Assembly: GCA_046757525.1 (NCBI GenBank) | Contig: JBHHYI010000001.1 | Location: 31,073-95,072, forward strand | Reading direction: 5' to 3' | Source: a bacterium | GTDB lineage: Bacteria; Zhuqueibacterota; Zhuqueibacteria; Oceanimicrobiales; Oceanimicrobiaceae | DNA length: 64,000 nucleotides | In this document: piece after piece, positions 12,548 through 54,441 of the stretch | How the letters are laid out: each line of letters begins with the position of its first letter | How positions within the stretch are numbered: the stretch's first letter is position 1 | The notes under the pieces: model-generated | The model's database searches: none | What the model was told of the DNA's origin: nothing | What the model saw: only the letters and a program-made list of their open reading frames with translations | Position numbers and translations under genes: made by a program

Positions 12548-14068
12548 ATGAAAAAAGAGATCATAATTAATTCCACAGTTAGCGAGACGAGAATTTCCAT
12601 ATTAGAAGATGGCAGGTTGGCCGAACTTTTTGTTGAAAGGCCTGAAAATGAGAGAATGGTCGGTGACATCTACCTGGGTAAGGTGGTCAATGTGGTGTTG
12701 GGGCTGCAAGCCGCATTTGTCAACATTGGTCACCCTCAGGACGCTTTCTTGCATTTTTCTGATATAGGGAACGTTCTTGTGGATTACAAGGTATTTGCAG
12801 ACTTAAATGGTTCAAGGAATAATTCTCACGGAAAATATGGGAGGCCAGTTCCTAAAGAAGGGCAAGAAATCTTAGTACAAATCATTAAAGAACCTATCAA
12901 CAAAAAAGGTGCGAGGGTAACAACAGAAATTTCCATTCCTGGACGATTTTTGGTTTTGGTTCCTAAGTCAGACGCAGTAGGTGTGTCGAAAAAAATCAAT
13001 CGAGTTAAGGAAAAACGAAGGCTCAAAAAAATTGTGCGCGGGATCAAGCCTGACGGCTTCGGGTTAATCGTGAGAACAGTGGCGGAAAATCAAGATGAAA
13101 AAGCATTAAAAGCTGATTTGGATAACCTGATCAGGGAATGGAAAAAAATTCAAAAAAAACTCAGAGGCAAATCCCCTCCATCTTTGATTCACAAAGATAT
13201 CGCCATGGCTTCGAGCGTTATCCGAGACCTGTTCACCAGCGATGTTCAAAAATTGGTGTTGGATAACAAGAAATTGTACAAACAGATTTCTGGGTATCTT
13301 AAGGACGTTGCGCCGTCGTTGTACAACCGGGTTAAGTATTATGGCAATCACAAACCCATTTTTGACGCTTACGGCATTGAAGCAGATATTGAGAAGGGCC
13401 TCTCCCGCAAGGTCTGGACGCCAAGTGGGGGGTACATCATTTTTGATCACACGGAAGCGCTGGTTGCCGTGGACGTCAACAGCGGTAAGTTCCTCGGGCG
13501 CAAGGAACCTGAAGCAAACATTTTGAAAATCAATTTAGAAGCGGCCAAGGAAATTGCCCGGCAACTGCGCTTGCGCGACATGGGCGGGCTGATCATCATC
13601 GATTTTATCGACATGACGGATCCGGCCAACAAAAAGAAGCTTTACGAGCATTTCCGTCGTGAACTGCGAAAGGACCGCGCCCAGGCGAATATTACACCCA
13701 TCAGTGAATTTGGCTTGATCGAAATGACGCGCGAGCGGGTGAGGCCGAGTTTGCTTTATACTTTTAGCGAGTCTTGCCCCACTTGCGACGGTACCGGGCG
13801 GGTTGTGTCAAAAACGACGGTGCTGACGCGAATTGAGCGGGCGATTAAGCGACTCAAATCCGAGTGCAGAGAATGGTCTCTGCAGCTTGTTGTGCACCCT
13901 TCGATTGCGCACTATTTGACTTCCGGATTCAACAACAAGGTGCGCAGAATGATGTGGAAATATCGATTGAAAATTGAAGTTCTCAGGAACGACGGGTTAA
14001 GAACCGACCAGTTCAAAATAATCTTGAAAAAATCTCAACAAGAAGTCACAGACCAGTTCTTATCGTAA
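12548..14068 (+). CDS. rng: ribonuclease G/E family (RNase G)
   Basis: S1 domain, RNase E/G catalytic core and a CPxCxGxG zinc link (CPTCDGTG). 506 aa. Confidence 0.85.
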   Translation: MKKEIIINSTVSETRISILEDGRLAELFVERPENERMVGDIYLGKVVNVVLGLQAAFVNIGHPQDAFLHFSDIGNVLVDYKVFADLNGSRNNSHGKYGRPVPKEGQEILVQIIKEPINKKGARVTTEISIPGRFLVLVPKSDAVGVSKKINRVKEKRRLKKIVRGIKPDGFGLIVRTVAENQDEKALKADLDNLIREWKKIQKKLRGKSPPSLIHKDIAMASSVIRDLFTSDVQKLVLDNKKLYKQISGYLKDVAPSLYNRVKYYGNHKPIFDAYGIEADIEKGLSRKVWTPSGGYIIFDHTEALVAVDVNSGKFLGRKEPEANILKINLEAAKEIARQLRLRDMGGLIIIDFIDMTDPANKKKLYEHFRRELRKDRAQANITPISEFGLIEMTRERVRPSLLYTFSESCPTCDGTGRVVSKTTVLTRIERAIKRLKSECREWSLQLVVHPSIAHYLTSGFNNKVRRMMWKYRLKIEVLRNDGLRTDQFKIILKKSQQEVTDQFLS

Positions 14069-21092: not shown

Positions 21093-22538
21093 ATGGTAAA
21101 TTTAGTTCAAAGACTTAGCATGCAGCTAAAACAGTCGCCTCAACAGGTGCTGTTATCTTCTCTACTCCAACTTCCACTATTGAGCCTGGAGCAAAAACTA
21201 AAATATGAGCTGGAGATGAACCCGTTGCTTGAAATCGATGAAGAGATAGAAGTAGCAGAGGAAATGCAAGAAGAACCTGAACTGAATGCTGAGCTGGACG
21301 ACAAGGATCAAAGCACAGATGGGGAATTGGAGCCAAGCGAAGATGCCACCGATGATTTCGACAAAAATGAAGTTGACTGGGATGCCATATTGAATGATGA
21401 AGACAATTATGAGTTTCGCATGCCGAGAGACCATAGCGCCGAGATATTTGAACGGCCAGAAGTGGCGCAAACCACCCTGCCGGAGCACCTTTTAAGTCAG
21501 CTTCATCTGATAGATTTATCTGAGGAGGAAACGGCGATTGGGGAATATATTATCTGGAACATCAACGAAGACGGCTACCTGTCTGTTTCGCTGGAACTCA
21601 TAGCCGAAAACCTGGACCAGCCTATTGATAAGATCGAAAAGGTTTTAAGTGTAGTTCAACAACTTGATCCCGTAGGCATTGGAGCCAGGAACCTGCAAGA
21701 GTGTCTGCTCATTCAAATGCTCGACAGGAATCCGGAAGATCACATCGCCATCACCATTTTGCGCGAGCACTTCGAAGATTTTACCAACAAACGCTTTGAA
21801 AAGATCACCAAGAAAATGAATATCACGCTGGATGACATCCGTAGAGCCATGGATGAGATCACCAAACTAAACCCGAAACCCGGTGAAGGCTATGTCACCT
21901 ACCACCAGAATGTCATCATCCCCGATTTGGTCGTAGAGAGGGAGGACGGTGAGTTCAAAATCGTCATGAACGACTGGAACGTTCCCCACCTGAGGATCAA
22001 TAATTCTTACAAGCGGCTGTTGTTAGATAAGAAGCATACTTCCAAGGACACCAAGGACTACATTCGGCAAAGCCTGGAGTCTGCTCGCTGGTTGATCAAT
22101 TCAATCCATCAAAGGCGGGCGACGATCTTGCGCGTCATGGAAGCCATCATCGACAAACAAAGGCCATTCTTCGAAAGGGGCAAGGATTATCTTAAGCCGA
22201 TGATTTTGAAGGATATCGCAGATGAGATTGGCATGGATATCTCTACCATCAGCCGGGTCACCAACGGCAAGTATGTTCAGACCGAACATGGTGTGTTCGA
22301 GCTAAAATACTTCTTTAGCGAAAGAATCAAAAGCGGTACCGGCGAGGATGTCTCCAACAAGAAAATAAAAGGCTTGATTAAGGAAATGATTGCCCAAGAG
22401 GATCCGCACAAGCCATTAAACGATCAAAAGATTGCGGAGATGTTGAAGACCGAGGGCTTCAGTGTGGCGCGCAGAACTGTTGCAAAGTACCGTGAGCAAA
22501 TGATGATCCCGGTATCCCGTCTGAGGAGGAAGATTTAA
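21093..22538 (+). CDS. rpoN: RNA polymerase sigma-54 factor
   Basis: N-terminal Q/L-rich activator-interacting region and an RpoN box (ARRTVAKYRE) at the C-terminus. Confidence 0.9.
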   Translation: MVNLVQRLSMQLKQSPQQVLLSSLLQLPLLSLEQKLKYELEMNPLLEIDEEIEVAEEMQEEPELNAELDDKDQSTDGELEPSEDATDDFDKNEVDWDAILNDEDNYEFRMPRDHSAEIFERPEVAQTTLPEHLLSQLHLIDLSEEETAIGEYIIWNINEDGYLSVSLELIAENLDQPIDKIEKVLSVVQQLDPVGIGARNLQECLLIQMLDRNPEDHIAITILREHFEDFTNKRFEKITKKMNITLDDIRRAMDEITKLNPKPGEGYVTYHQNVIIPDLVVEREDGEFKIVMNDWNVPHLRINNSYKRLLLDKKHTSKDTKDYIRQSLESARWLINSIHQRRATILRVMEAIIDKQRPFFERGKDYLKPMILKDIADEIGMDISTISRVTNGKYVQTEHGVFELKYFFSERIKSGTGEDVSNKKIKGLIKEMIAQEDPHKPLNDQKIAEMLKTEGFSVARRTVAKYREQMMIPVSRLRRKI

Positions 22539-22701
22539 CCTGAATAATCCACTTCAAAAACTGAGTTTTTAAGTGAAAATTGCACGGTATTTAAGTTGTT
22601 TGACATGGGGATGTCATTATTACCAAAAAAATAATAAATTACCAGAAAAACTCAGTTTTTTGGGTTAGGTTAAATAAGACTTCTATAAATTATTCAGGTT
22701 A
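22537..22701. promoter_or_regulatory. nested inverted repeats in the rpoN-hslV intergenic region
   Basis: Outer inverted repeat aacctgaataat (22537-22548) / attattcaggtt (22689-22700). Two copies of AAAAAC-TGA/TCA-GTTTTT (22556-22570 and 22646-22660). Central tgacat-gggg-atgtca palindrome (22601-22616). Confidence 0.4.
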
Positions 22702-22709
22702 AGTCAAAA

Positions 22710-26855: not shown

Positions 26856-27141
26856 CGACAGCGAGGCGTTTCCTGAAAGCACTGTGCGAGTCATCCCGAG
26901 TAGGTCGCTGCTGTTCAAGTGACCGTATCGAGGGGTGACGGACGTCGATACGAAATTCCCCTTTTTGAAAGGGGGACGGTTTTTGAAGCGTCCAGCGAAA
27001 AAACCAGGGGGATTTTAGGAGGCGTCCTGAAAACCCAAGCTAAGGTGCTGTCGGCCAGACATCCCTCTGATTTTCGCTCTGAACGAGCGAAAATCTGTCT
27101 CCCTTCAAAGGGAGAATGGCCTCGCAAACGAGACGTTTGCG
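26856..27141 (+). repeat. structured intergenic repeat element, copy A (5' module, hairpin-rich middle, conserved 3' hairpin)
   Basis: Positions 26883-26953 are about 90% identical to 53802-53872. The 3' hairpin cgcaaacg-aga-cgtttgcg is shared with copy B. Confidence 0.6.
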
Positions 27142-42676: not shown

Positions 42677-45192
<2,516 letters not shown>

Positions 45193-47016: not shown

Positions 47017-48349
47017 GCCAAATTATTCCGTTCGCCACATTTGCGTGAACATACTGGACCGGCTCAACCACAACGGCCACTATGCCGACGAGCTTATCGC
47101 AGAAGCGTTCAAGAGACATTCTTTGCCGCAAGTCGACAGGTCGCTGGTGGTTGAACTCGTAAACGGCACGGTGCGTTGGCAGGGACAACTCGATTGGATT
47201 CTGGCGCGGGGTTTCCGGGGTGACTTTAACCGGTGCGCGAGCAAACTGAGAGCCATTTTGGAGTTGAGTTTGTACCAGATCAGATTTTTGCAAAGAATCC
47301 CCAAATATGCGGCGGTAGACCAGGGCGTGGAGATCGCGAAAGCCGAAGGGGGGAAGTCCTGGGGCAATTTGGTCAACGCGGTTTTGCGGAATTACCTCAG
47401 GCGCGAGAAAACCCTTGAAATGCCTTCTTTTGAAGCAGACGCCACAACAGCATTGGCGGTTCGCCACTCCCATCCGCAATGGATGGTGCAGCGATGGTTA
47501 GATCGTTACGGTTTGGAAGAAACCGAAGAGCTTTGTCGCTTTAACAACCAAAGACCGTGCGTCTGCGTGCGCGTGAATCTGGCCAAAACCTCGCCTGAGC
47601 ACCTACTGCAATATTTTCAAGAAAGGGAGATCGAGGCTCGCCCGTCGATTTATTTTGCCGATTTTATCAAGATTACTCGTCCGGGAGATTTAAACAACTG
47701 CTCAGCGTTTACCAACGGCCAGTTTACCATTCAAGATGAAAGCACGGCCATCGGCAGTCTGTTGTTAGCACCCCAAAAAGGCGAGACCGTTTTAGATTTG
47801 TGCGCGGCGCCTGGAGGCAAGGCGGGCCACTTAGCCCAGTTGCTCGGTGAATCCGGCCGGGTCTTAGCCGTGGATCAGAACTTCAATCGCTTGAGCTTGT
47901 TGCAGGACAATATTGTTAGGTTACAAACAAGACTCATCCGGCCAATCGTGGCCGATGGGCGCCACTTTCAGTGTTCCCCGGTCAACAAAATCCTGTTAGA
48001 CGCTCCTTGTTCTGGCCTGGGCGTTTTGGCCAAACGGGTCGATTTGCGCTGGAGACGAAAACCCAACGATATCGCTAAGGTGAGCCGTTTGCAAAGGTCT
48101 TTGTTGCAAAGCGCCAGTCGACTGGTCAAAAAAGGGGGAGTTTTGGTTTACAACACTTGCACCCTCGAGCCTGAGGAAAATGAAACTGTGGTTGAAGATT
48201 TCCTGGATCGCAATGGGAATTTTAGGTTAGAACCGCTGGCTTTAAGTTGTTTGGAGCCATTCGCGAATTCCCAGGGCTATTTCAGATCCTTACCCCAAAA
48301 GCACAAAATGGACGGAGCTTTTGCGGCAAGATTGTTAAGGATTAACTAG
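47009..48349 (+). CDS. rsmB: 16S rRNA (cytosine967-C5)-methyltransferase RsmB
   Basis: N-terminal NusB-like domain, SAM motif (DLCAAPGGK) and catalytic motifs (DAPCSG; LVYNTCTL). Confidence 0.9.
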   Translation: MNKPNYSVRHICVNILDRLNHNGHYADELIAEAFKRHSLPQVDRSLVVELVNGTVRWQGQLDWILARGFRGDFNRCASKLRAILELSLYQIRFLQRIPKYAAVDQGVEIAKAEGGKSWGNLVNAVLRNYLRREKTLEMPSFEADATTALAVRHSHPQWMVQRWLDRYGLEETEELCRFNNQRPCVCVRVNLAKTSPEHLLQYFQEREIEARPSIYFADFIKITRPGDLNNCSAFTNGQFTIQDESTAIGSLLLAPQKGETVLDLCAAPGGKAGHLAQLLGESGRVLAVDQNFNRLSLLQDNIVRLQTRLIRPIVADGRHFQCSPVNKILLDAPCSGLGVLAKRVDLRWRRKPNDIAKVSRLQRSLLQSASRLVKKGGVLVYNTCTLEPEENETVVEDFLDRNGNFRLEPLALSCLEPFANSQGYFRSLPQKHKMDGAFAARLLRIN

Positions 48350-48503
48350 TGATTGACCGAGACTCCCAAAATGTCATTTCGACGCAGTCCAGCAACTGCC
48401 GGACGGAGGAGAAATCTGGTTACATTGGTGCTTAGCCAGATTTCTCATCAGGCATTCGCCTGATTCGAAATGACAGTCGTTAGATGAGTTTTCGGTCAAT
48501 CAC
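48349..48503. repeat. about 155-bp nested inverted-repeat (MITE/REP-like) element between rsmB and the PASTA gene
   Basis: Outer inverted repeat gtgattgaccga / tcggtcaatcac. Inner inverted repeat tgtcatttcga / tcgaaatgaca. Internal stems gagaaatctgg / ccagatttctc and tcaggc / gcctga. Confidence 0.6.
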
Positions 48504-48535
48504 TAACTTAAAGTATGAATTAAGAGCCAATAATC

Positions 48536-49318
48536 ATGGCCACTCTCAAAGAACGAGCATTGCACCTATTGACTCCCAAGCGAGTAGCGATCCTGGCCTT
48601 GCTCACGGGCGTCTTATTAGGGGTCACTATTCTATTTGACCAGGTCCTCATGCCCTGGTATACGCGGCACGATCAGGCCCTGGAAGTGCCAAACCTGGTG
48701 GGTAAGCGATTCGAAAGCGCCAAAGAGCTTTTGGACGCAGCCGGTTTGGAAATCGTCAAGAAGGGCGAGAAGTATGACTCGGCGTGGCCGTTCGGCTATG
48801 TGGTGGACCAGAACCCACACGCATTGAGGAAGGTCAAGAATGGCCGACGGGTTTATGTGACTCTGAGCCTTGGCGACCGTGAGCTGCAAGTGCCGGACCT
48901 CATGGGACTGTCTGAAACCAACGCTGAGGAACGATTAAAGAGCCTGGGGCTTCGGATCGGGGAACGAGAATACGAATACGTTGCCAACGAACCGTCCGAT
49001 ATCGTCATCGCCCAGTCGTTGCCACCGAACCGAATGGTGAAAACTGGCACCGCCGTTGACATAAAGGTCAGTCTGGGCAAGGCGGCTGGCAGCGCTCGAG
49101 TTCCGTCAATTCTGGGCAAAACCCTGGAGACCGCCAAAAGGGAAATAAGAAAATCGGGGCTGGTTCTGGGTCATGTACAGTTCCGCCTGACCAACGAATT
49201 CTTGCCGAACACAGTCATCTGGCAGTCCCTTACGACGGGCACAAAGGTAACCCGCGGGGACACTTTAGACCTCATCGTGACCACGGTGAGCCAATCAAAG
49301 CGGAGCTTGAAACAATGA
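48536..49318 (+). CDS. membrane-anchored PASTA-domain protein (three PASTA repeats, no kinase or PBP domain)
   Basis: N-terminal TM followed by three repeats of about 65 aa beginning VPNLVG / VPDLMG / VPSILG. Confidence 0.8.
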   Translation: MATLKERALHLLTPKRVAILALLTGVLLGVTILFDQVLMPWYTRHDQALEVPNLVGKRFESAKELLDAAGLEIVKKGEKYDSAWPFGYVVDQNPHALRKVKNGRRVYVTLSLGDRELQVPDLMGLSETNAEERLKSLGLRIGEREYEYVANEPSDIVIAQSLPPNRMVKTGTAVDIKVSLGKAAGSARVPSILGKTLETAKREIRKSGLVLGHVQFRLTNEFLPNTVIWQSLTTGTKVTRGDTLDLIVTTVSQSKRSLKQ

Positions 49319-49974
49319 TCAAGATCGCGCCTTCTATTCTGGCAGCAGACTTCTCGGTGCTAAGAGACCAAATCCAAATCGCCGAAGAAGCGGGAGCCGA
49401 TTGGTTGCATCTGGACGTCATGGACGGCCACTTTGTACCGAACTTAACCTTTGGGCCGTTGCTGGTAGAGGCTGTTAATAGAATCACCGACTTGCCTTTG
49501 GATGTTCATCTAATGATCGAGAATCCCGACGCCTACATCCACCAGTTCCGCGAGGCAGGTGCGGACATCATTTCCGTGCATGCAGAAGCCTGTGTGCATC
49601 TGAACCGGACGCTCAACTTGATCAGAGACGCCGGGGCGCAAGGGGGCGTGGCTCTCAACCCGGCCACACCCATCGGTTTCTTAGATGACGTTCTGGACGA
49701 CACCGACCTGGTGTTAGTCATGACCGTCAATCCGGGATTCGGCGGTCAGTCGTTTATTGCCCATTCCGCCGACAAAATCCAACGTATTGCCCGCAAACTC
49801 GAGCAGGCTGAACTTTCGATTTTCATAGAGGTCGACGGTGGCATCGATAAGATTACCGCGCCACAGGTGGTAGCGGCTGGCGCTAATGTGTTGGTGTCCG
49901 GCTCCGCCATCTTTGCCTCTGAGGATATCTCCCGGGCCCTGAAGGCGATAAGGGCGTCGGTAGCGGGTCTGTAG
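49315..49974 (+). CDS. rpe: ribulose-phosphate 3-epimerase
   Basis: IAPSILAADF, HLDVMDGHFVPN and VMTVNPGFGGQ motifs. Confidence 0.9.
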   Translation: MIKIAPSILAADFSVLRDQIQIAEEAGADWLHLDVMDGHFVPNLTFGPLLVEAVNRITDLPLDVHLMIENPDAYIHQFREAGADIISVHAEACVHLNRTLNLIRDAGAQGGVALNPATPIGFLDDVLDDTDLVLVMTVNPGFGGQSFIAHSADKIQRIARKLEQAELSIFIEVDGGIDKITAPQVVAAGANVLVSGSAIFASEDISRALKAIRASVAGL

Positions 49975-50024
49975 CTCGCATGATTCACAAACTTTCAGTT
50001 TTTTGCTGCGCGTTCTACTGATGG

Positions 50025-50064
50025 TGTCATTTCGAGTCAGGCGGCTGCCTGACTCGAAATGACA
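50025..50064. repeat. perfect 18-bp-stem palindrome sharing the TGTCATTTCGA termini of the 48349-48503 element
   Basis: tgtcatttcgagtcaggc-ggct-gcctgactcgaaatgaca. No U-run follows it. Confidence 0.7.
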
Positions 50065-50321
50065 GTTTGGGGGCTTAAGTTGATGCCGATGGGCGTATGC
50101 CGGATTAATCGGGAATCTTGTGCCTAATTCTCGAATGCATTCCTGCTTACACCATGCAGCAATGACATTCATTGGGCCAATAGATGAAATTCACAATAGT
50201 TTAGTTATTGGATGGCGGATAAACGGGGATGTAATCAAGATTATCTGGGGGTATTACCTTGACGCAGTTACCTACCGTGACGTATTGCCAATCGTATTCT
50301 CAGTCCAGGATAGTTAAGGTG

Positions 50322-51497
50322 TCAATACTTCTTAGCAACGGTTTTATACGCGTCTCTAAATGGCATCCCTCCTTTAACTAATTTATAGACCGCTTCCGTC
50401 GCATAAACTTCTTCGGTCATCGCTTTTGCACAATTGTCCTCGTTGACTTTGAGATTCTGGAAAATGAGGCTCATGATTTCAATACTGGCCCTTGTAATTT
50501 CAAAGGCCTGCATGATTGGTTTTTTGGTAAGTTGTAAGTCTCGATGATAGCCTGATATCAAGTTACCGATGATATTCTTGATTTGGAATTCCTGTGACAC
50601 GACGATGTGGCATCTTGCTCGCAGCAGCTCCAACACATCCGGGTTCTTTTTTTGTGGCATAATCGAACTGCCTGTGCAAAAATCCTCAGGCAATTCGAAA
50701 TACCCGAACTCCGGCATGCTGAATACGATTAAGTCGGAGGCTATTTTATTTAAATCGAACATGATTTGACTTAACGCGTGCAGTATGGTGGATTCAAATT
50801 TCCCGCGGCTGTTTTGACAGTAAATCGGGTTTTGTTGCAGCTTTTTAAAACCCAATAACTCAGTCGTCATATCTCTATTTATTTTCAGAGGGATGCCATA
50901 GCCGGCGCCAGTTCCTAACGGTGATTGATCCACTAATTCAAGTGAAAGTTCAACTACTTTCAGGTTGTCATTCATTGAATCGATAAACGAAGTTCCCCAC
51001 ATGCTAACCGCGGAGGGCATGGCTTTTCTTGTATGGGAATATCCTGGAAATATTATTTCTCCGTACTTTTTGCTAAAATTAGCGATTGCTTTGATTAGTC
51101 GCTCCACCGATTTCTTGCATTCATTCAGCTCATGCTTATAAAACAATCTCAATGCCGTCAACACCTGGTCGTTTCTCGACCGTGCGGTATGTATCTTCTT
51201 ACCCAAATCGCCTAACTTTTTTACCAGATGGTTCTCGATGGCGGTGTGACAATCCTCTTGTTCTTTCCGAATCTTGAATTTGCCCTTCTTATCTAAGTGG
51301 ATAATGTGGTTTAGTTCCCGTTCGAGTTTTTGCACCTCTTGTTCGTTCAAAATGCCAACCGTGCCCAGCATCTTAGCGTGGGCAATCGAAGCTATGCAGT
51401 CGTATTTCACTAATTTCTGGTCCAGAATAAAGTCATCATCCACGGTGAAGTCTTCGATCTGTTTATTTGGGTGGGTGTGCGTTTGCCAAAGTTTCAT
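50322..51497 (-). CDS. argH: argininosuccinate lyase (short, about 391 aa, C-terminal part apparently missing)
   Basis: Fumarate-lyase signature [12 protein letters not shown]. About 41% GC versus about 53% in flanking DNA. Start placed at MKLWQ, overlapping the argG 3' end. Confidence 0.8.
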
Positions 51498-52743
51498 ATT
51501 TTCGCCAATCATACGGTTTTCTCTTGCGTAACACAAGATGGTGAGCTTTTAATCTAATGGCATTAATGTTGATAAAGCCGCGCGAGTCTGTTGCGTCAAA
51601 TCCACCTTCGACTTCCATACTGGAGAGGTCCTGTTCGTAAAGAGATGTGGGGGATTCTCTGCCGATTATATTCACACTGCCTTTGTACAGAGAAAGAAGG
51701 ACTCTGCCGTCGATGGCTTCTTGACTTTTGTTGAAAGCGCTCATGATAAAATCCATTTCCGGTGAAAACCAAAAGCCATTATAAATCAATTCAGAAAATT
51801 TTGGTATCAGCATGTCCCGCAAGTGCATAACTTCTTTGTCCATGGCAATGCCTTCCAGGTCTCTGTGGGCTTCCCAAAGAATAGTAGCCCCGGGAGATTC
51901 ATAAATACCTCTGGATTTTATCCCAATAAACCGATTTTCAACCATATCCACTCTGCCGATTCCATTTTCGCTGCCCAAATCATTTAAATACATGAATAGT
52001 TCCAGGGGCTTATCCTTGACAATCTCTTTATTTTTGTTGATGACCTTTACCGGGAAGCCATTCTTAAAATGAATCTCGACGATCGTCTCCTCGTCGGGCG
52101 TTTGCTTGATCGATTTGGTCATGGAAAATATATTTTCAGGCGGCCGATAAAATGTGTTTTCCAAAACGCCGGCTTCGTGGCTTATGTGCATCAAGTTTTC
52201 ATCTTCGCTGTACGGTTTTTCTTTGGAGGCTTTCACCGAAATGTTCCATTTTTTGGCATAATTCAATAAGTCACTTCTCCCCTTGAATTCTTCTAAGAAT
52301 TCCGGATCCTTCCACGGGGAGACTATTTTGATGTCAGGATTTAGAGCGTAGTAAGTAAGTTCAAATCTCACCTGATCATTTCCTTTGCCTGTGGCCCCAT
52401 GGGAAACAAATTCTGCGTTCTCGATTTCAGCAATTTCAATTTGTTTTTTCGAAAGTAGGGGTCTCGCTAAGGAGGTGCCGAGCAAGTACCTGCCCTCATA
52501 AAGTGCGTTGCCTCGCAGCGCAGGGAAGATGTAATCTGTGACAAACACTTCTCTCAGATCTTCTGTAAAAACTTTAGAAGCTCCGGTTGCAAGCGCTTTT
52601 TGTTCAAGCGCTTTGAAATCCTCTTGTTGTCCAACGTTGCCTACGAAACAAATTACCTCAAATCCTTTATTAAGCAACCATTTTAAAATTACAGACGTGT
52701 CCAGTCCGCCACTATAAGCCAGGATCAGTTTTTTCGTTGCCAT
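51463..52743 (-). CDS. argG: argininosuccinate synthase
   Basis: [12 protein letters not shown]-loop, 426 aa, low GC like argH. Confidence 0.9.
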
Positions 52744-52745
52744 AA

Positions 52746-53735
52746 TTAATCACGATCGTTTTGGTTATGCATGAGTTTATGCCGCTTCTCCAAGAGCGCG
52801 TCAATTGCGGAGATGGTTTCCCTGGGAAGTTTCCAGTCACCCGCCCCAATGGTTTGCTCAATTTGCACTTGACGCCTCGCTCCCACAATCGCGGCGGTGA
52901 CTTCAGGGCGCCGCAGCACCCAGGCGATTGCAAGCTGGGCAACGGACTTCCCATGTTCCTCGGCCAGCGACCTCAGAGCGTCCACGAACGCCAGATTCGA
53001 GCTCAGCTCAGGCTCCCGGAATCGGCTGTCAACCGTTCGTCTGTGGTCCGCCTCCGGCAACGCTTCTACCCATTCTCGGGTAAACTTGTCCGTCAAAATA
53101 CCTTTCTGCAAGGGACTGTAAGGGATGACCCCGATGTTTTTTGCTGAACAATAATCCAGCAGATTATTTTCAACGTTGCGTTCAAGCATGCTGTACGGCG
53201 GCTGCACCGAAGCCACCAGGTGAATCGCTGCAATGCGCTCGAGTTGTTTTACACTAAAATTGCACACGGCGGCATACCGGATTTTCCCTTCTTCGACCAA
53301 CTCTGCTAATGCGCCCCAGGCTTCTTCGATATCATTTTTCGGGTCTGGCCAGTGAATTTGATAGAGATCGATCGCCTCGATTTGCAGTCGTCTTAAGCTG
53401 GCCTCTACTTCAGCCCGAACACTCGCTCGTTTTAATCTTCCGAAAACGTTGCCGTCTTTATCCCAGGCCAGGCCGCATTTGGTGGCAAGGATGGGCTTAG
53501 CGCTCCTGCCTTTAATGGCTTGGCCCACGACTTCCTCAGCGTGACCCAACCCGTAGACCGGGGCGGTGTCAATCCAATTGACGCCTAAATCAAGCGCACG
53601 TTGGATAGTAGTGATCGATTCTTGATCATCCTGTGGGCCCCAGCCAAAAGGCCAGCCGCCACCGCCGATAGCCCAGGTGCCGAGTCCAATAGGAGTCAAT
53701 TCTAAATCTGTGGAGCCTAATTTTTTTGTTTGCAT
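52746..53735 (-). CDS. aldo/keto reductase family oxidoreductase
   Basis: LGTWAIGG and WIDTAPVYG motifs. Start placed at MQTKKLG (53735). The rest of the tracked ORF is 5' leader. Confidence 0.8.
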
Positions 53736-53779
53736 GGTTTTTCGAAGCTTTGTGCGCGTTTTTACACTAAAGAAAACGA

Positions 53780-53995
53780 CTGAAGTGGTTCTTAGAAACA
53801 ATGTGCAAGTCATCCCGAGTAGGTCACCGCTGTTCAGGTGACCGTATCGAGGGGTGACGGGCTTCGATACGTCCCGACCAAAAAGCGGTAGGGACCAAAC
53901 GGTGACCTTCTTTGAGAAGGTTACCGTTTGACAACCCCGCCCTCGCAATCGAGACGATTGCGTTACGTGCAACAGAGCGTTTCCTGAGAGTGTAC
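53780..53995 (+). repeat. structured intergenic repeat element, copy B
   Basis: Positions 53802-53872 are about 90% identical to 26883-26953. Contains a 15-bp hairpin (53905-53937) and the shared 3' hairpin cgcaatcg-aga-cgattgcg (53944-53962). Confidence 0.6.
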
Positions 53996-54315
53996 TAATA
54001 TGTTAAATAAATGAAAGCATGTCAAGAGAAAAGTTTGTCCAATGATTCGCGCAAAAGCTTCTCAGTGGGTTTATTTGCACCAACAGGGCCTGGCTTTGGT
54101 CAAACGAGTGAATCCAAAGCCTCACAAAGGTTCAGAACCTTCGCGAGGCGGGCGCAGCCCAAACTTGTCGCAGCGACGGTCGAATGCTAAGGCTTATGCC
54201 GGGTCGGTGGCTGTGGTTCCTATTTTTTCAGGGGTACCAAATCAAGGGCGGGTTTTGATGGGTTGGGACGAAACGTGTGCGCATGCCCGGGCTGCGCAGT
54301 AACCCCAAAAATTTC

Positions 54316-54344
54316 TTGACAAATAGCAAGATATTAATTATATT
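54316..54344 (+). promoter_or_regulatory. sigma-70-like promoter for the cold-shock gene
   Basis: TTGACA (54316-54321), 17-nt spacer, TATATT (54339-54344), about 95-nt leader. Confidence 0.5.
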
Positions 54345-54441
54345 GCAATCGTTTAACGGTGAATAGGCAGTTTGGTCTACATAATATTACAAAGGGGTTT
54401 TATGTAGATCAAGCGGCACAAAAGGAGGAGGAGTGCACAGC

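What the first reader, a model, noticed from the sequence alone, without database searches (positions are those of the whole stretch)
48349..48503. MITE/REP-like nested inverted-repeat element between rsmB and the PASTA gene
Immediately after the rsmB stop lies a 155-bp element with outer terminal inverted repeats (gtgattgaccga ... tcggtcaatcac) and inner inverted repeats (tgtcatttcga ... tcgaaatgaca). Inside it are at least three further stems: gagaaatctgg/ccagatttctc (11 bp), tcaggc/gcctga and gtcc/ggac. The element splits an otherwise conserved operon-like neighbourhood (def-fmt-rsmB | PASTA-rpe). A stripped-down relative sits 1.5 kb away at 50025-50064. Its structure is consistent with a non-autonomous mobile element or a REP-type protein-binding palindrome.
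Basis: seen in the sequence. Interest (0 to 1): 0.55.

Follow-up and report, generated by a model that had tools for sequence, protein, structure and literature searches.

The report
Ssn-related hairpin-repeat dimer between genes
The 157-bp palindromic insert between rsmB and the PASTA gene is a gene-less, inverted pair of a widespread bacterial hairpin repeat whose relatives flank, and in Neisseria are cut by, small GIY-YIG single-strand DNA nucleases (the Ssn family); it is real and mobile-looking but belongs to a kind already described in 2013 and 2025.

Summary

It is neither an operon regulator nor a chance palindrome. Five of six related genomes have only 4-14 nt between rsmB and the PASTA gene. 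The sixth has unrelated hairpins there.

The core is two inverted units of the form (T)GTC-ATTTC-GA-[stem-loop]-GA-GAAAT-C-TGG. The same units, in the same inverted arrangement, flank a ~100-aa GIY-YIG nuclease gene in other bacteria. That nuclease is homologous to Neisseria SsnA (40% identity, surrounded by canonical NTS repeats).

Homologous gene-less dimers, including the outer repeat, sit on eight unrelated contigs of one metagenome. Compensatory changes preserve the unit hairpins, not the long nested fold.

The hairpin at 50025-50064 is a solo, perfectly palindromic unit of the same subfamily.

The class is known: CGTC/TGTC-tagged REPs (Di Nocera 2013) and Ssn-related motifs (Chenal 2025). 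This subfamily escapes the published SRM search string.

No Ssn gene lies in the window. Mobility and nuclease recognition are inferred, not shown. This is a new member of a known kind, of modest interest.

The parts
48347..48360 (.). Left arm of the outer terminal inverted repeat (TAGTGATTGACCGA). Bases 48347-48349 are the rsmB stop codon TAG.
   Evidence: 14/14 complementary to 48492-48505. The mirror arm aligns with the outer repeat of the metagenome family (15/21 to TGGGGACTGTCCAAAAAATCA).
48373..48416 (+). Unit 1 (SRM-like hairpin unit, degenerate): GTC-ATTTC-GA-[CGCAGTCCAGCAACTGCCGGACGGAG]-GA-GAAAT-C. The head TGTCATTTCGA is at 48372-48382 and the tail GAGAAATCTGG at 48409-48419.
   Evidence: One of only two matches in the window to the rule GTC-[5-mer]-GA...GA-[rc 5-mer]-C (0.08 expected). 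The ssDNA fold has the expected topology but is weak (-5.0 kcal/mol, z 0.0). It is homologous to unit 2 of L136/L141/L142.
48420..48435 (.). Spacer between the two tails (TTACATTGGTGCTTAG). In nuclease-carrying relatives this position holds the GIY-YIG gene.
   Evidence: in L118 and L126 the GIY-YIG ORF lies between the tail of the + unit and the tail of the - unit.
48439..48474 (-). Unit 2 (well-formed SRM-like unit), read on the - strand: GTC-ATTTC-GA-ATCAGGC-GAAT-GCCTGAT-GA-GAAAT-C. The head is at 48465-48475 and the tail at 48436-48446.
   Evidence: The second match to the unit rule. The ssDNA hairpin is -9.4 kcal/mol, z -3.8. It is 89-95% identical to unit 1 of eight Ga0114931 contigs.
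48492..48505 (.). Right arm of the outer terminal inverted repeat (TCGGTCAATCACTA).
   Evidence: The alignment with L142 runs through this arm to 48506 (72% over 144 nt, E 5e-18).
50025..50064 (.). Solo unit turned into a perfect palindrome: TGTCATTTCGA-GTCAGGC-GGCT-GCCTGAC-TCGAAATGACA. It lies 50 nt after the rpe stop, between convergent rpe and argH.
   Evidence: 18-bp perfect stem. ssDNA fold -22 kcal/mol on either strand, z about -10. It shares the interior TCAGGC/GCCTGA with unit 2.
50065..50104 (+). Flank of the solo unit that is still homologous to the family (GTTTGGGGGCTTAAGTTGATGCCGATGGGCG...).
   Evidence: Window 50029-50104 aligns to L141 at 75% over 76 nt. In alignment A1 it shows the shared TTAAGTTGA..CC.ATGG.

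Best explanation
Window 48347-48505 is a gene-less, inverted dimer of Ssn-related hairpin units (TGTC-tagged REPs), enclosed in the outer terminal repeats of its own repeat family. It was inserted at the rsmB/PASTA junction in this lineage. The hairpin at 50025-50064 is a solo unit of the same subfamily.

Each unit reads 5'-(T)GTC-ATTTC-GA-[variable stem-loop]-GA-GAAAT-C-TGG-3'.

Shown:
- The units form a dispersed, cross-phylum repeat family.
- In other bacteria two such units in the same inverted arrangement bracket a ~100-aa single-domain GIY-YIG gene that is homologous to Neisseria SsnA.
- The unit hairpin is maintained by compensatory substitutions.
- The element is absent from the same junction in relatives.

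Inferred by analogy with the Neisseria, N. elongata, N. wadsworthii and Wolbachia enzymes of Chenal et al. 2025:
- When the DNA is single-stranded (replication, transformation, conjugation), each strand presents one unit hairpin.
- A cognate Ssn nuclease, encoded elsewhere in the genome if at all, would bind the hairpin and cut a few nucleotides 5' of the TGTC head.
- In an inverted dimer those cuts would fall just outside both heads.
- Spread of the repeats would then depend on that nuclease through a single-strand route without target duplication, as for REP/RAYT and IS200/IS605.

A secondary consequence follows from position. The element is probably transcribed within the operon as a very stable RNA hairpin, which may affect mRNA stability or downstream expression.
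For: Family and dispersal
- TGTCATTTCGA-N(4-34)-TCGAAATGACA occurs in more than 118 species-representative genome stretches from many phyla. About 1-2 are expected by chance (my calculation from collection size).
- Those loci hold 54 extra half-sites against 6.5 expected.
- The covariation-aware unit rule finds 106 units against 1.2 expected in the loci. In the window it finds exactly the two halves of the element (0.08 expected).

Nuclease link
- In L118, L126-L135 and L084 the units flank a GIY-YIG ORF (Pfam PF01541, E 6.5e-17) as unit(+)-gene-unit(-).
- Nearly all of the 120 best homologues end in EISPxGR[DN]D, which is the translated tail-to-head half. Some over-called N-termini read CHFDRREKS, which is the head-to-tail half.
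- This nuclease hits N. gonorrhoeae at 40% identity over 87% of its length (E 3e-8), in a locus with eight canonical NTS repeats.
- It hits a Rhizobium gene at 49% identity that is flanked by inverted SRMs matching the published string.
- The window tail GAAATCTGG fits the NTS tail GGAATCYRG, and the head TGTCATT fits CGTCATT.

Structure
- The head 5-mer and tail 5-mer match in 70 cases against 3, and the tail was never part of any search pattern.
- In the homologous dimers ATTTC/GAAAT is replaced by ACCCC/GGGGT. That keeps the unit hairpins (96% of cells paired, 3 pairs changed on both sides) but breaks the long B:B' stem in 3 of 4 copies.

Insertion
- rsmB-PASTA gaps are 14, 4, 10, 10 and 4 nt in L120, L121, L123, L124 and L125. 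L122 has about 128 nt of unrelated hairpins. The window has 186 nt.
- Deleting 48349-48505 restores ...AAC TAA.
- Homologous dimers with the same outer repeat lie on eight different contigs of metagenome Ga0114931.
- Inverted (+-) arrangement dominates among adjacent units: 27 against 10 (-+) and 1 (++).

Literature
- PMC11893778 (Ssn, NTS and SRM biochemistry) and PMC3733652 (CGTC/TGTC-tagged REPs, inverted dimers, dimers nested in longer palindromes).
Against: - No Ssn-like gene exists in the 64-kb window (best profile hit E 2.2, against 1e-68 for controls). The rest of the source genome could not be read.
- The copy number in the source genome is unknown. Only two loci of this subfamily lie in 64 kb.
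- The published SRM search string matches neither the window units nor the units that flank the GIY-YIG genes used as the link.
- Unit 1 is degenerate as a hairpin (z 0.0), and the short canonical units fold no better than shuffles thermodynamically. Support for the unit fold is therefore covariation, not energy.
- The dimer covariation rests on four sequences and effectively one evolutionary event.
- No enzyme of this subfamily has been assayed. Cleavage, strand choice and any role in mobility are extrapolated from Neisseria and Wolbachia enzymes.
- The identical nuclease P0002 was found mostly in one genomic context, so that look-up gave no independent evidence of transposition.
- The taxonomic source of the Ga0114931 copies is unknown.
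Confidence: 0.72

Rival explanations
1. A classical MITE moved by a DDE transposase (for example an IS630/Tc1-like enzyme with a TA target). On this view the 14-bp outer terminal repeats are the transposase sites and the Ssn-type units are passengers or later insertions.
For: - Perfect 14-bp outer repeats end in TA on both sides, and deleting 48349-48505 restores the TAA stop of rsmB.
- The outer repeat is part of the repeated family unit in Ga0114931.
- About 12% of A...A' palindromes elsewhere sit inside longer palindromes.
Against: - The metagenome copies show no consistent TA or other direct repeat at their ends.
- The TA pair is self-complementary, so it may simply extend the inverted repeat.
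- Across 117 palindromes there is no TSD signal.
- No transposase was found next to any copy.
- The outer repeat itself begins with a TGTC-like motif in the family.
Confidence: 0.1
2. A REPIN mobilised by a RAYT (HUH Y1 transposase), that is, an ordinary REP doublet of the GTAG type.
For: The architecture is that of a REPIN: two inverted imperfect palindromes, a short spacer and a long combined hairpin. There is no TSD, as expected for single-strand transposition.
Against: - The conserved tag is TGTC, not GTAG.
- Di Nocera et al. found no RAYT flanked by CGTC/TGTC repeats.
- The units are found physically flanking GIY-YIG genes instead.
Confidence: 0.06
3. A native cis-acting RNA element of the def-fmt-rsmB-PASTA-rpe operon (terminator, attenuator or processing/stability hairpin) that only resembles a repeat.
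For: - The RNA fold is very stable on the sense strand (-78.5 kcal/mol, z -8.9).
- It sits immediately after a stop codon.
- The solo hairpin sits between convergent genes, where 3' stabilisers are common.
- REP-type elements are known to act this way secondarily.
Against: - It is absent from the same junction in all six relatives.
- It folds equally well on the antisense strand.
- There is no T-tract and no terminator consensus.
- There is no Rfam match.
- Homologues lie at unrelated loci.
- Covariation supports the unit hairpins, not the long fold.
Confidence: 0.07
4. A chance palindrome or an assembly artefact.
For: The only other public contig with this PASTA gene breaks at both elements, so assemblers have trouble here.
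Against: - None of 200 shuffles folds as well.
- The same sequence is present in an independent Logan assembly up to the break.
- There is extensive homology to repeats elsewhere.
Confidence: 0.01

Closest known systems
Ssn-related motifs (SRM) / Neisseria NTS with SsnA GIY-YIG ssDNA nucleases (Chenal et al. 2025, PMC11893778)
   Same: - A hairpin repeat with a conserved unpaired 5' head (C/T)GTCAT and a 3' tail AATCYRG.
- Units flank a single-domain nuclease gene of about 100 aa in inverted orientation.
- The nuclease clade linked here is homologous to the gonococcal gene that sits among NTS repeats.
   Different: - The stem is 5 bp, then a tandem GA/AG mismatch, then a variable distal stem, instead of 8-9 Watson-Crick pairs.
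- The published search string does not match.
- The window copy has no nuclease gene in cis or within 64 kb.
- The units have expanded distal stem-loops of 18 and 26 nt.
- No biochemistry exists for this subfamily.
CGTC-tagged REPs, including dRS3 and Rickettsia RPE-4/6 (Di Nocera et al. 2013, PMC3733652)
   Same: - A terminal tag that is often TGTC.
- Stems that begin with A-T pairs.
- A short unpaired tail.
- Mostly inverted dimers whose partners may fold separately or as one large stem-loop.
- Some dimers nested inside longer family-specific palindromes.
- Location after ORF ends.
   Different: - That catalogue reported five phyla, stems of 8-9 bp and loops of 4-5 nt. Here the host is an unclassified, KSB1-related MAG and the stems and loops are longer.
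- That paper found no associated enzyme.
REPIN-RAYT systems (Bertels and Rainey 2011)
   Same: An inverted doublet of imperfect palindromes acting as a non-autonomous unit, dependent on a nuclease or transposase encoded elsewhere that acts on ssDNA hairpins, with no target duplication.
   Different: The tag differs (GTAG) and so does the enzyme (HUH tyrosine transposase). RAYTs are usually single-copy and vertically inherited, whereas the GIY-YIG gene here is 70-93% identical across records assigned to different phyla.
Correia/NEMIS-type bacterial MITEs
   Same: Size of about 100-160 bp, terminal inverted repeats, TA at both ends, insertion at gene ends, and a strong RNA hairpin when transcribed.
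   Different: Correia elements show a true TA duplication and have no internal Ssn-type units. A TA duplication is not supported by the family copies here.

Membership tests
CGTC/TGTC-tagged REP class (Di Nocera 2013) | Terminal CGTC tag (TGTC or CCTC accepted) immediately 5' of the stem | tested here: met
   Both units and the solo hairpin start TGTC-ATTTC.
CGTC/TGTC-tagged REP class (Di Nocera 2013) | Stem whose first two pairs are A-T, followed by a short unpaired 3' tail | tested here: met
   ATTTC pairs with GAAAT (A-T, T-A first), followed by the tail CTGG. The tail consensus in the paper is CCA, so tail sequence agreement is only partial.
CGTC/TGTC-tagged REP class (Di Nocera 2013) | Stem 8-9 bp, loop 4-5 nt | tested here: not met
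   - Unit 2 has 5 bp, a GA/AG mismatch and then 7 bp, with a 4-nt loop.
- Unit 1 has a 26-nt interior.
- The short relatives (L118) have 5 + 2 mismatches + 2 with a 3-4 nt loop.
The geometry is a variant of the published one.
CGTC/TGTC-tagged REP class (Di Nocera 2013) | Dispersed multi-copy family, mostly as inverted dimers | tested here: met
   - 106 units in the loci against 1.2 expected.
- Adjacent units: +- 27, -+ 10, ++ 1.
- Eight dimer copies in Ga0114931.
The copy number in the source genome itself was not testable.
Ssn-related motif (SRM) sensu Chenal 2025 | Match to the published degenerate string HGTCWYN(0-2)YYVSBRHN(0-5)WNVSBRGN(0-2)RNCYNB | tested here: not met
   There are 0 hits in the window. 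The string matches none of the window units, the solo hairpin, or the L118/L084/L126 flanking units. Controls (NTS, and Rhizobium and gonococcal flanks) match. The string fails at the GA mismatch positions.
Ssn-related motif (SRM) sensu Chenal 2025 | Repeat units flank an ssnA-family gene on both sides in inverted orientation | tested here: met
   This is met for the subfamily (L118, L126-L135, L084; C-terminal tails of about 120 homologues). It is not met for the window copy itself, which is gene-less.
Ssn-related motif (SRM) sensu Chenal 2025 | An ssnA homologue is present in the genome that carries the repeats | tested here: inconclusive
   None is present in the 64-kb window. The rest of the 187.5-kb contig and the MAG could not be retrieved.
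Ssn nuclease family (cd10448) for the linked GIY-YIG clade | Single-domain GIY-YIG of about 94-110 aa, homologous to N. meningitidis SsnA | tested here: met
   - Pfam finds GIY-YIG only.
- The core is about 100 aa.
- tblastn to N. gonorrhoeae gives 40% identity over 87% of the query, E 3e-8, in a locus with 8 NTS.
The CDD assignment to cd10448 itself could not be run.
Ssn nuclease family (cd10448) for the linked GIY-YIG clade | Site-specific cleavage of ssDNA upstream of the hairpin, with no activity on dsDNA or RNA | not testable with these tools
   A biochemical property, shown only for the Neisseria and Wolbachia enzymes.
MITE (DDE-transposase derived) | Target-site duplication flanking the terminal inverted repeats | tested here: not met
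   The window has TA on both sides, but TA is self-complementary. The family copies have no consistent direct repeat. The 117 palindromes show no TSD signal.
REPIN/RAYT | GTAG tag and a flanked RAYT gene | tested here: not met
   The tag is TGTC. The literature reports no RAYT flanked by CGTC repeats. No systematic RAYT search was run on the loci.
Rfam RNA families | Match to any curated covariance model | tested here: not met
   There are no matches at gathering score in the whole window. Only chance-level miRNA hits (E > 1) fall on the two elements.

The most novel reading that the evidence does not exclude
The unit(+)-GIY-YIG-unit(-) module is an autonomous, IS-like mobile element that uses an Ssn-type single-strand nuclease as its only mobility protein and moves between phyla. 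Gene-less dimers such as the one in this window would be its MITE/REPIN-like derivatives.

Evidence compatible with this:
- The nuclease is 70-93% identical in records assigned to Deltaproteobacteria, Nitrospirota, Ignavibacteria, Actinomycetota (Aquicultor) and Hydrogenedentes, and it mostly sits on short contigs.
- It sits inside defence operons and directly after a truncated-looking ORF.
- The units are dispersed in many phyla and on viral contigs.
- There is a lineage-specific insertion here.

Chenal et al. noted the IS-like layout but proposed domestication. Transposition by a GIY-YIG enzyme has not been shown in bacteria.
Probability: 0.3. Interest if true: 0.7.

Novelty: new member of a known kind. 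Interest (0 to 1): 0.3.

Why it matters
Three points have some value.

1. It places the Ssn-associated repeat class in an uncultivated, KSB1-related lineage. It also shows a large cross-phylum subfamily (TGTCATTTCGA...GAGAAATC, with a tandem GA mismatch in the stem) that the published SRM search string misses. Surveys based on that string therefore undercount these repeats.

2. The gene-less inverted dimer, its solo palindromic derivative and the nuclease-carrying form give a series like autonomous element, MITE and solo repeat. That series makes an old question concrete and testable: how do CGTC-tagged REPs spread without a known transposase?

3. For annotation, the units explain recurrent spurious peptide tails (EISPFGRDD..., CHFDRREKS...) and assembly breaks.

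Tried and rejected
- Rfam at gathering score on the whole window, and at E up to 10 on 48300-50150: nothing but chance miRNA-like hairpin hits.
- Literature search by sequence strings: only primers.
- Published SRM string: no match.
- Intrinsic terminator and sigma-70 promoter scans: neither element qualifies.
- tblastn and a profile HMM for a GIY-YIG gene in the window: none.
- NCBIfam and PDB searches for the nuclease: only sub-threshold GIY-YIG motif hits, and no solved relative.
- Look-up of the identical nuclease P0002 on many contigs, hoping for many insertion contexts: nearly all were the same methylase-gene-ResIII context, so there is no independent evidence of transposition.
- Target-site duplication: a TA pair flanks the window element, but the family copies and 117 palindromes give no support.
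- The two 1-mismatch sites at 13719 and 56748, and the head match at 44866, lie in coding sequence with no partner motif. I treated them as chance.
- The outer repeat as a pre-existing host hairpin: rejected, because homology with L142 runs through it.
- The supplementary tables of the Ssn paper are not held, so I could not check whether this subfamily is listed there.
- Retrieval of the source NCBI contig beyond the window failed. Only a 1.6-kb Logan contig was returned.
- Viral contigs carry the units but none of the 60 stretches carries the nuclease.
Full report
**1. The observation**

- Outer repeat: 14 perfect bp, TAGTGATTGACCGA / TCGGTCAATCACTA. Its first three bases are the rsmB stop codon.
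- Inside it: TGTCATTTCGA (A, 48372-82) and TCGAAATGACA (A', 48465-75).
- GAGAAATCTGG (B, 48409-19) and CCAGATTTCTC (B', 48436-46).
- Small stems GTCC/GGAC and ATCAGGC/GCCTGAT in the A-B and B'-A' linkers.

The region folds far better than shuffles on both strands: RNA -78.5 and -80.3 kcal/mol (z -8.9 and -9.3), ssDNA -45.1 kcal/mol (z -8.95).

The hairpin at 50025-50064 is a perfect 18-bp stem. Pfam confirms tgt, def, fmt, rsmB, a PASTA protein and rpe on the + strand, and argH/argG on the - strand. Rfam has no match. Neither element fits an intrinsic-terminator or promoter consensus.

**2. It is an insertion, not a conserved regulatory region**

The exact PASTA protein is recorded from an unclassified NCBI MAG on a 187.5-kb contig. 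The nearest named relative is candidate division KSB1.

Six orthologous loci keep the order tgt-yajC-def-fmt-rsmB-PASTA-rpe. The rsmB stop and the PASTA start are 14, 4, 10, 10 and 4 nt apart in five of them. In the sixth (L122) there is a spacer of about 128 nt with unrelated hairpins. None has the GTCATTNCGA motif at that junction. The window has 186 nt.

Removing 48349-48505 would leave ...AGG ATT AAC TAA, the same RsmB C-terminus with a TAA stop, 29 nt before the PASTA ATG.

**3. The inner repeat belongs to a widespread family**

I estimate one or two by chance from the collection size. The hits come from Bacteroidota, Chloroflexota, Acidobacteriota, Nitrospirota, Nitrospinota, Desulfobacterota, Gammaproteobacteria, Clostridia, Planctomycetota and others.

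Many of them also contain GAGAAATCT...AGATTTCTC, which was not in the query, so they share the window's A-B-B'-A' layout. The fetched loci hold 54 further half-sites against 6.5 expected, with dense clusters in some.

**4. The link to a nuclease**

In L118 (Thermodesulfovibrionales), an A-B half (TGTCATTTCGACCGAAGGGAGAAATCTC) is followed directly by a 116-aa ORF. Its last codons are a B'-A' half (GAGATCTCTCCCTTCGGTCGAGATGACA). The ORF is a single GIY-YIG domain.

It has 4,924 database homologues. The best 120 are 70-93% identical although attributed to several phyla. Nearly all end in EISP[FCS]GR[DN]D..., which is the translated B'-A' half. Some over-called N-termini read CHFDRREKS, which is the A-B half.

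L126-L135 and L084 show the same unit(+)-gene-unit(-) layout.

**5. What the literature says**

Chenal et al. 2025 (PMC11893778) describe this arrangement.
- Single-domain GIY-YIG proteins of about 94 aa (Ssn, cd10448) bind a hairpin repeat as single-stranded DNA and cut upstream of it. They show no activity on dsDNA or RNA.
- In Neisseria the repeat is NTS (CGTCATTCCCGCGMAVGCGGGAATCYRG, which contains dRS3). More generally the repeats are Ssn-related motifs (SRM).
- 71% of ssnA homologues have an SRM nearby and 42% have one on both sides.
- The authors note the IS-like NTS-ssnA-NTS layout and suggest domestication.

Di Nocera et al. 2013 (PMC3733652) had already catalogued the same repeats as CGTC-tagged REPs.
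- The tag is often TGTC.
- Stems start with A-T pairs, followed by a short tail.
- Most copies are inverted dimers, and some dimers are nested in longer palindromes.
- No dedicated transposase was found.

I found no later paper on their mobility in the held library.

**6. Membership tests**

The published SRM string matches the NTS controls, the gonococcal flanks and the Rhizobium flanks. It matches none of the window units, the solo hairpin or the L118/L084/L126 flanking units. It fails where these units have a tandem GA/AG mismatch.

The nuclease link holds nevertheless.
- P0055 hits N. gonorrhoeae at 40% identity over 87% of its length (E 3e-8), in a locus with eight canonical NTS.
- It hits a Rhizobium gene at 49% identity that is flanked by inverted, string-positive SRMs.
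- Planktothrix (58%) and Spirosoma homologues carry TGTCAT-headed repeats that also escape the string.

The window's head (TGTCATT) and tail (GAAATCTGG) fit the NTS head (CGTCATT) and tail (GGAATCYRG).

I therefore file the element in the broad TGTC/CGTC-tagged REP class and call it SRM-like. I do not call it an SRM in the strict published sense.

**7. Which fold is conserved**

The unit can be written GTC-[5-mer]-GA...GA-[reverse complement of the 5-mer]-C.
- This rule finds 106 units in about 966 kb of loci (1.2 expected), with 5-mers ATTTC, ATCTC, ATTCC, ATTCT and ACCCC.
- In the window it finds exactly two units, 48373-48416 (+) and 48439-48474 (-), against 0.08 in shuffles.
- Head and tail 5-mers agree in 70 cases against 3, and the tail was never searched for.

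On the alignment of the window dimer with its three closest homologues:
- The unit hairpins keep 96% of cells paired, with three pairs changed on both sides (ATTTC/GAAAT to ACCCC/GGGGT).
- The long nested fold loses three B:B' pairs in three of four copies.
- It keeps A:A' only through T-G wobbles.

The conserved modules are the two unit hairpins.

Thermodynamically, unit 2 is a good ssDNA hairpin (-9.4 kcal/mol, z -3.8). Unit 1 is degenerate (z 0.0), and short canonical units are no better than shuffles. The covariation sample for the dimer is small and amounts to one event.

**8. Paralogues and boundaries**

The single metagenome scan used the window-specific interior (GTCATTTCGANTCAGGCN{3,6}GCCTGA). 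It found eight different contigs, all in Ga0114931.
- Three of them (L136, L141, L142) are homologous to the window dimer across both units and the spacer.
- With L142 the alignment runs from 48366 to 48506 (72% over 144 nt, E 5e-18), so it covers the right arm of the outer repeat.
- The family's own outer repeats (TGGGGYTGTCYAAAAAG ... CTTTTTRGACARCCCCA) resemble the window's TAGTGATTGACCGAAAAC at 15 of 21 positions.

The copies show no consistent direct repeat at their ends. The TA on each side of the window element is self-complementary, so a target duplication is not supported.

The solo hairpin shares the TCAGGC/GCCTGA interior with unit 2. About 40 nt of its right flank is still homologous to the family. 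It is a solo unit whose 3' half has become the exact complement of its head.

**9. Mechanism**

Shown:
- The element belongs to the repeat family.
- Relatives of the units are physically associated with Ssn-family genes.
- The unit hairpin covaries.
- The insertion is lineage-specific.

Inferred:
- In single-stranded DNA each strand of the dimer offers one unit hairpin.
- A cognate Ssn would bind it and cut a few nucleotides 5' of TGTC, that is, just outside both heads.
- The repeats would spread by a nuclease-dependent single-strand route without target duplication.

Not shown:
- Any Ssn gene in the source genome. None lies in the window.
- Any activity of this subfamily.
- Any transposition event.

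The element very probably lies inside the rsmB-PASTA-rpe transcript, because no promoter-like site is predicted between the genes. It would form a strong RNA hairpin there. Effects on mRNA stability or downstream expression are plausible but secondary.

**10. Verdict**

The kind is already known (2013, 2025), so the element is a new, divergent member of it. Interest is modest.

The most novel reading still open is that the unit-GIY-YIG-unit module is a true cross-phylum insertion sequence with gene-less dimers as its MITEs. I put that at about 0.3.

Noticed in passing
window 26875-26965 and 53795-53885: A second repeat pair: a block of about 85 nt, roughly 92% identical between the two sites, both intergenic. 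Its core is the hairpin GAGTCATCCCGAG-TAGGTCGCTGCTGTTCAAGTGACC-GTATCGAGGGGTGAC. The head GTCATCCCGA resembles SRM/CGTC-REP heads, and the inner stem shows compensatory changes between the two copies. An overlapping alternative hairpin is CGTATCGA..TCGATACG. There is no Rfam match.
   Followed up: partly
window 50065-54440: Relatives have rpe-csp-144aa-xerC-like-MCM. The window has a block of about 3.7 kb on the opposite strand (argH, argG, aldo-keto reductase) inserted between rpe and csp. The block is bracketed by the solo hairpin (50025-64) on one side and the second repeat (53795-885) on the other.
   Followed up: partly
window 22532-22705: An AT-rich nested palindrome of about 175 bp between the end of an rpoN-like gene and the start of an hslV-like gene. 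It has a 17-bp outer repeat GATTTAACCTGAATAAT and a 15-bp inner repeat AAAAACTGAGTTTTT. The RNA fold is -50.7 kcal/mol, z -5.35. It is unrelated in sequence to the element studied.
   Followed up: partly
L126-L134 (about 2150-2560), L145 1501-1785: The unit-GIY-YIG-unit module sits inside defence loci: between an N6 DNA methylase gene and a ResIII helicase gene in several metagenome contigs, and between an MmeI-type restriction-modification gene and DISARM drmA on a Planktothrix plasmid.
   Followed up: no
L118 4040-4195; L126 1974-2152: Directly upstream of the module is an 80-aa ORF resembling the end of a KilA-N-type protein (...ATASRYGGTYAH). It stops being conserved exactly at the TGTC head, as if the module had inserted into or beside that gene.
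   Followed up: no
P0001-P0120 (C-termini): Many nuclease ORFs are called through tandem arrays of half-sites downstream, which gives repetitive tails such as GRDDNKEKGRDDNRDGGRDDN. These are translated repeats, not protein sequence, and will contaminate protein databases.
   Followed up: no
L001 = window 48476-50054: The only other public contig with this exact PASTA gene (Logan, SRR29324611) begins directly after TCGAAATGACA of the dimer and ends inside the solo hairpin. The assembly graph therefore branches at both elements, as expected for repeats or for flipped variants.
   Followed up: partly
L002-L119 (flanks of the A...A' palindromes): In 12% of the palindromes the flanks continue the stem by 5 or more complementary bases (chance 0.1%). 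These are often an A-run on one side and a T-run on the other, so the conserved 11-bp block sits in the middle of terminator-like hairpins.
   Followed up: partly
L148-L207 (IMG/VR contigs), e.g. L163, L171, L159/L174: Canonical units (GTCATTTCGA-N5-12-GAGAAATC) occur on 60 stretches of viral or proviral contigs, some with 3-6 copies. No nuclease of this clade lies on any of the stretches.
   Followed up: partly
L122 3772-3900: The closest relative has its own expanded rsmB-PASTA spacer of about 128 nt, with two unrelated hairpins (GCCACGCAC..GTGCGTGGC and AAAAGGGATA..TATCCTTTT). Its PASTA gene appears to be called about 100 nt too short.
   Followed up: no
L137, L139 (left of the dimer; alignment A2 columns 20-75): Another palindromic repeat (TTTGTTTCG...CGAAACAGA) lies next to the dimer in two Ga0114931 contigs, so these repeats occur in mosaics.
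   Followed up: no
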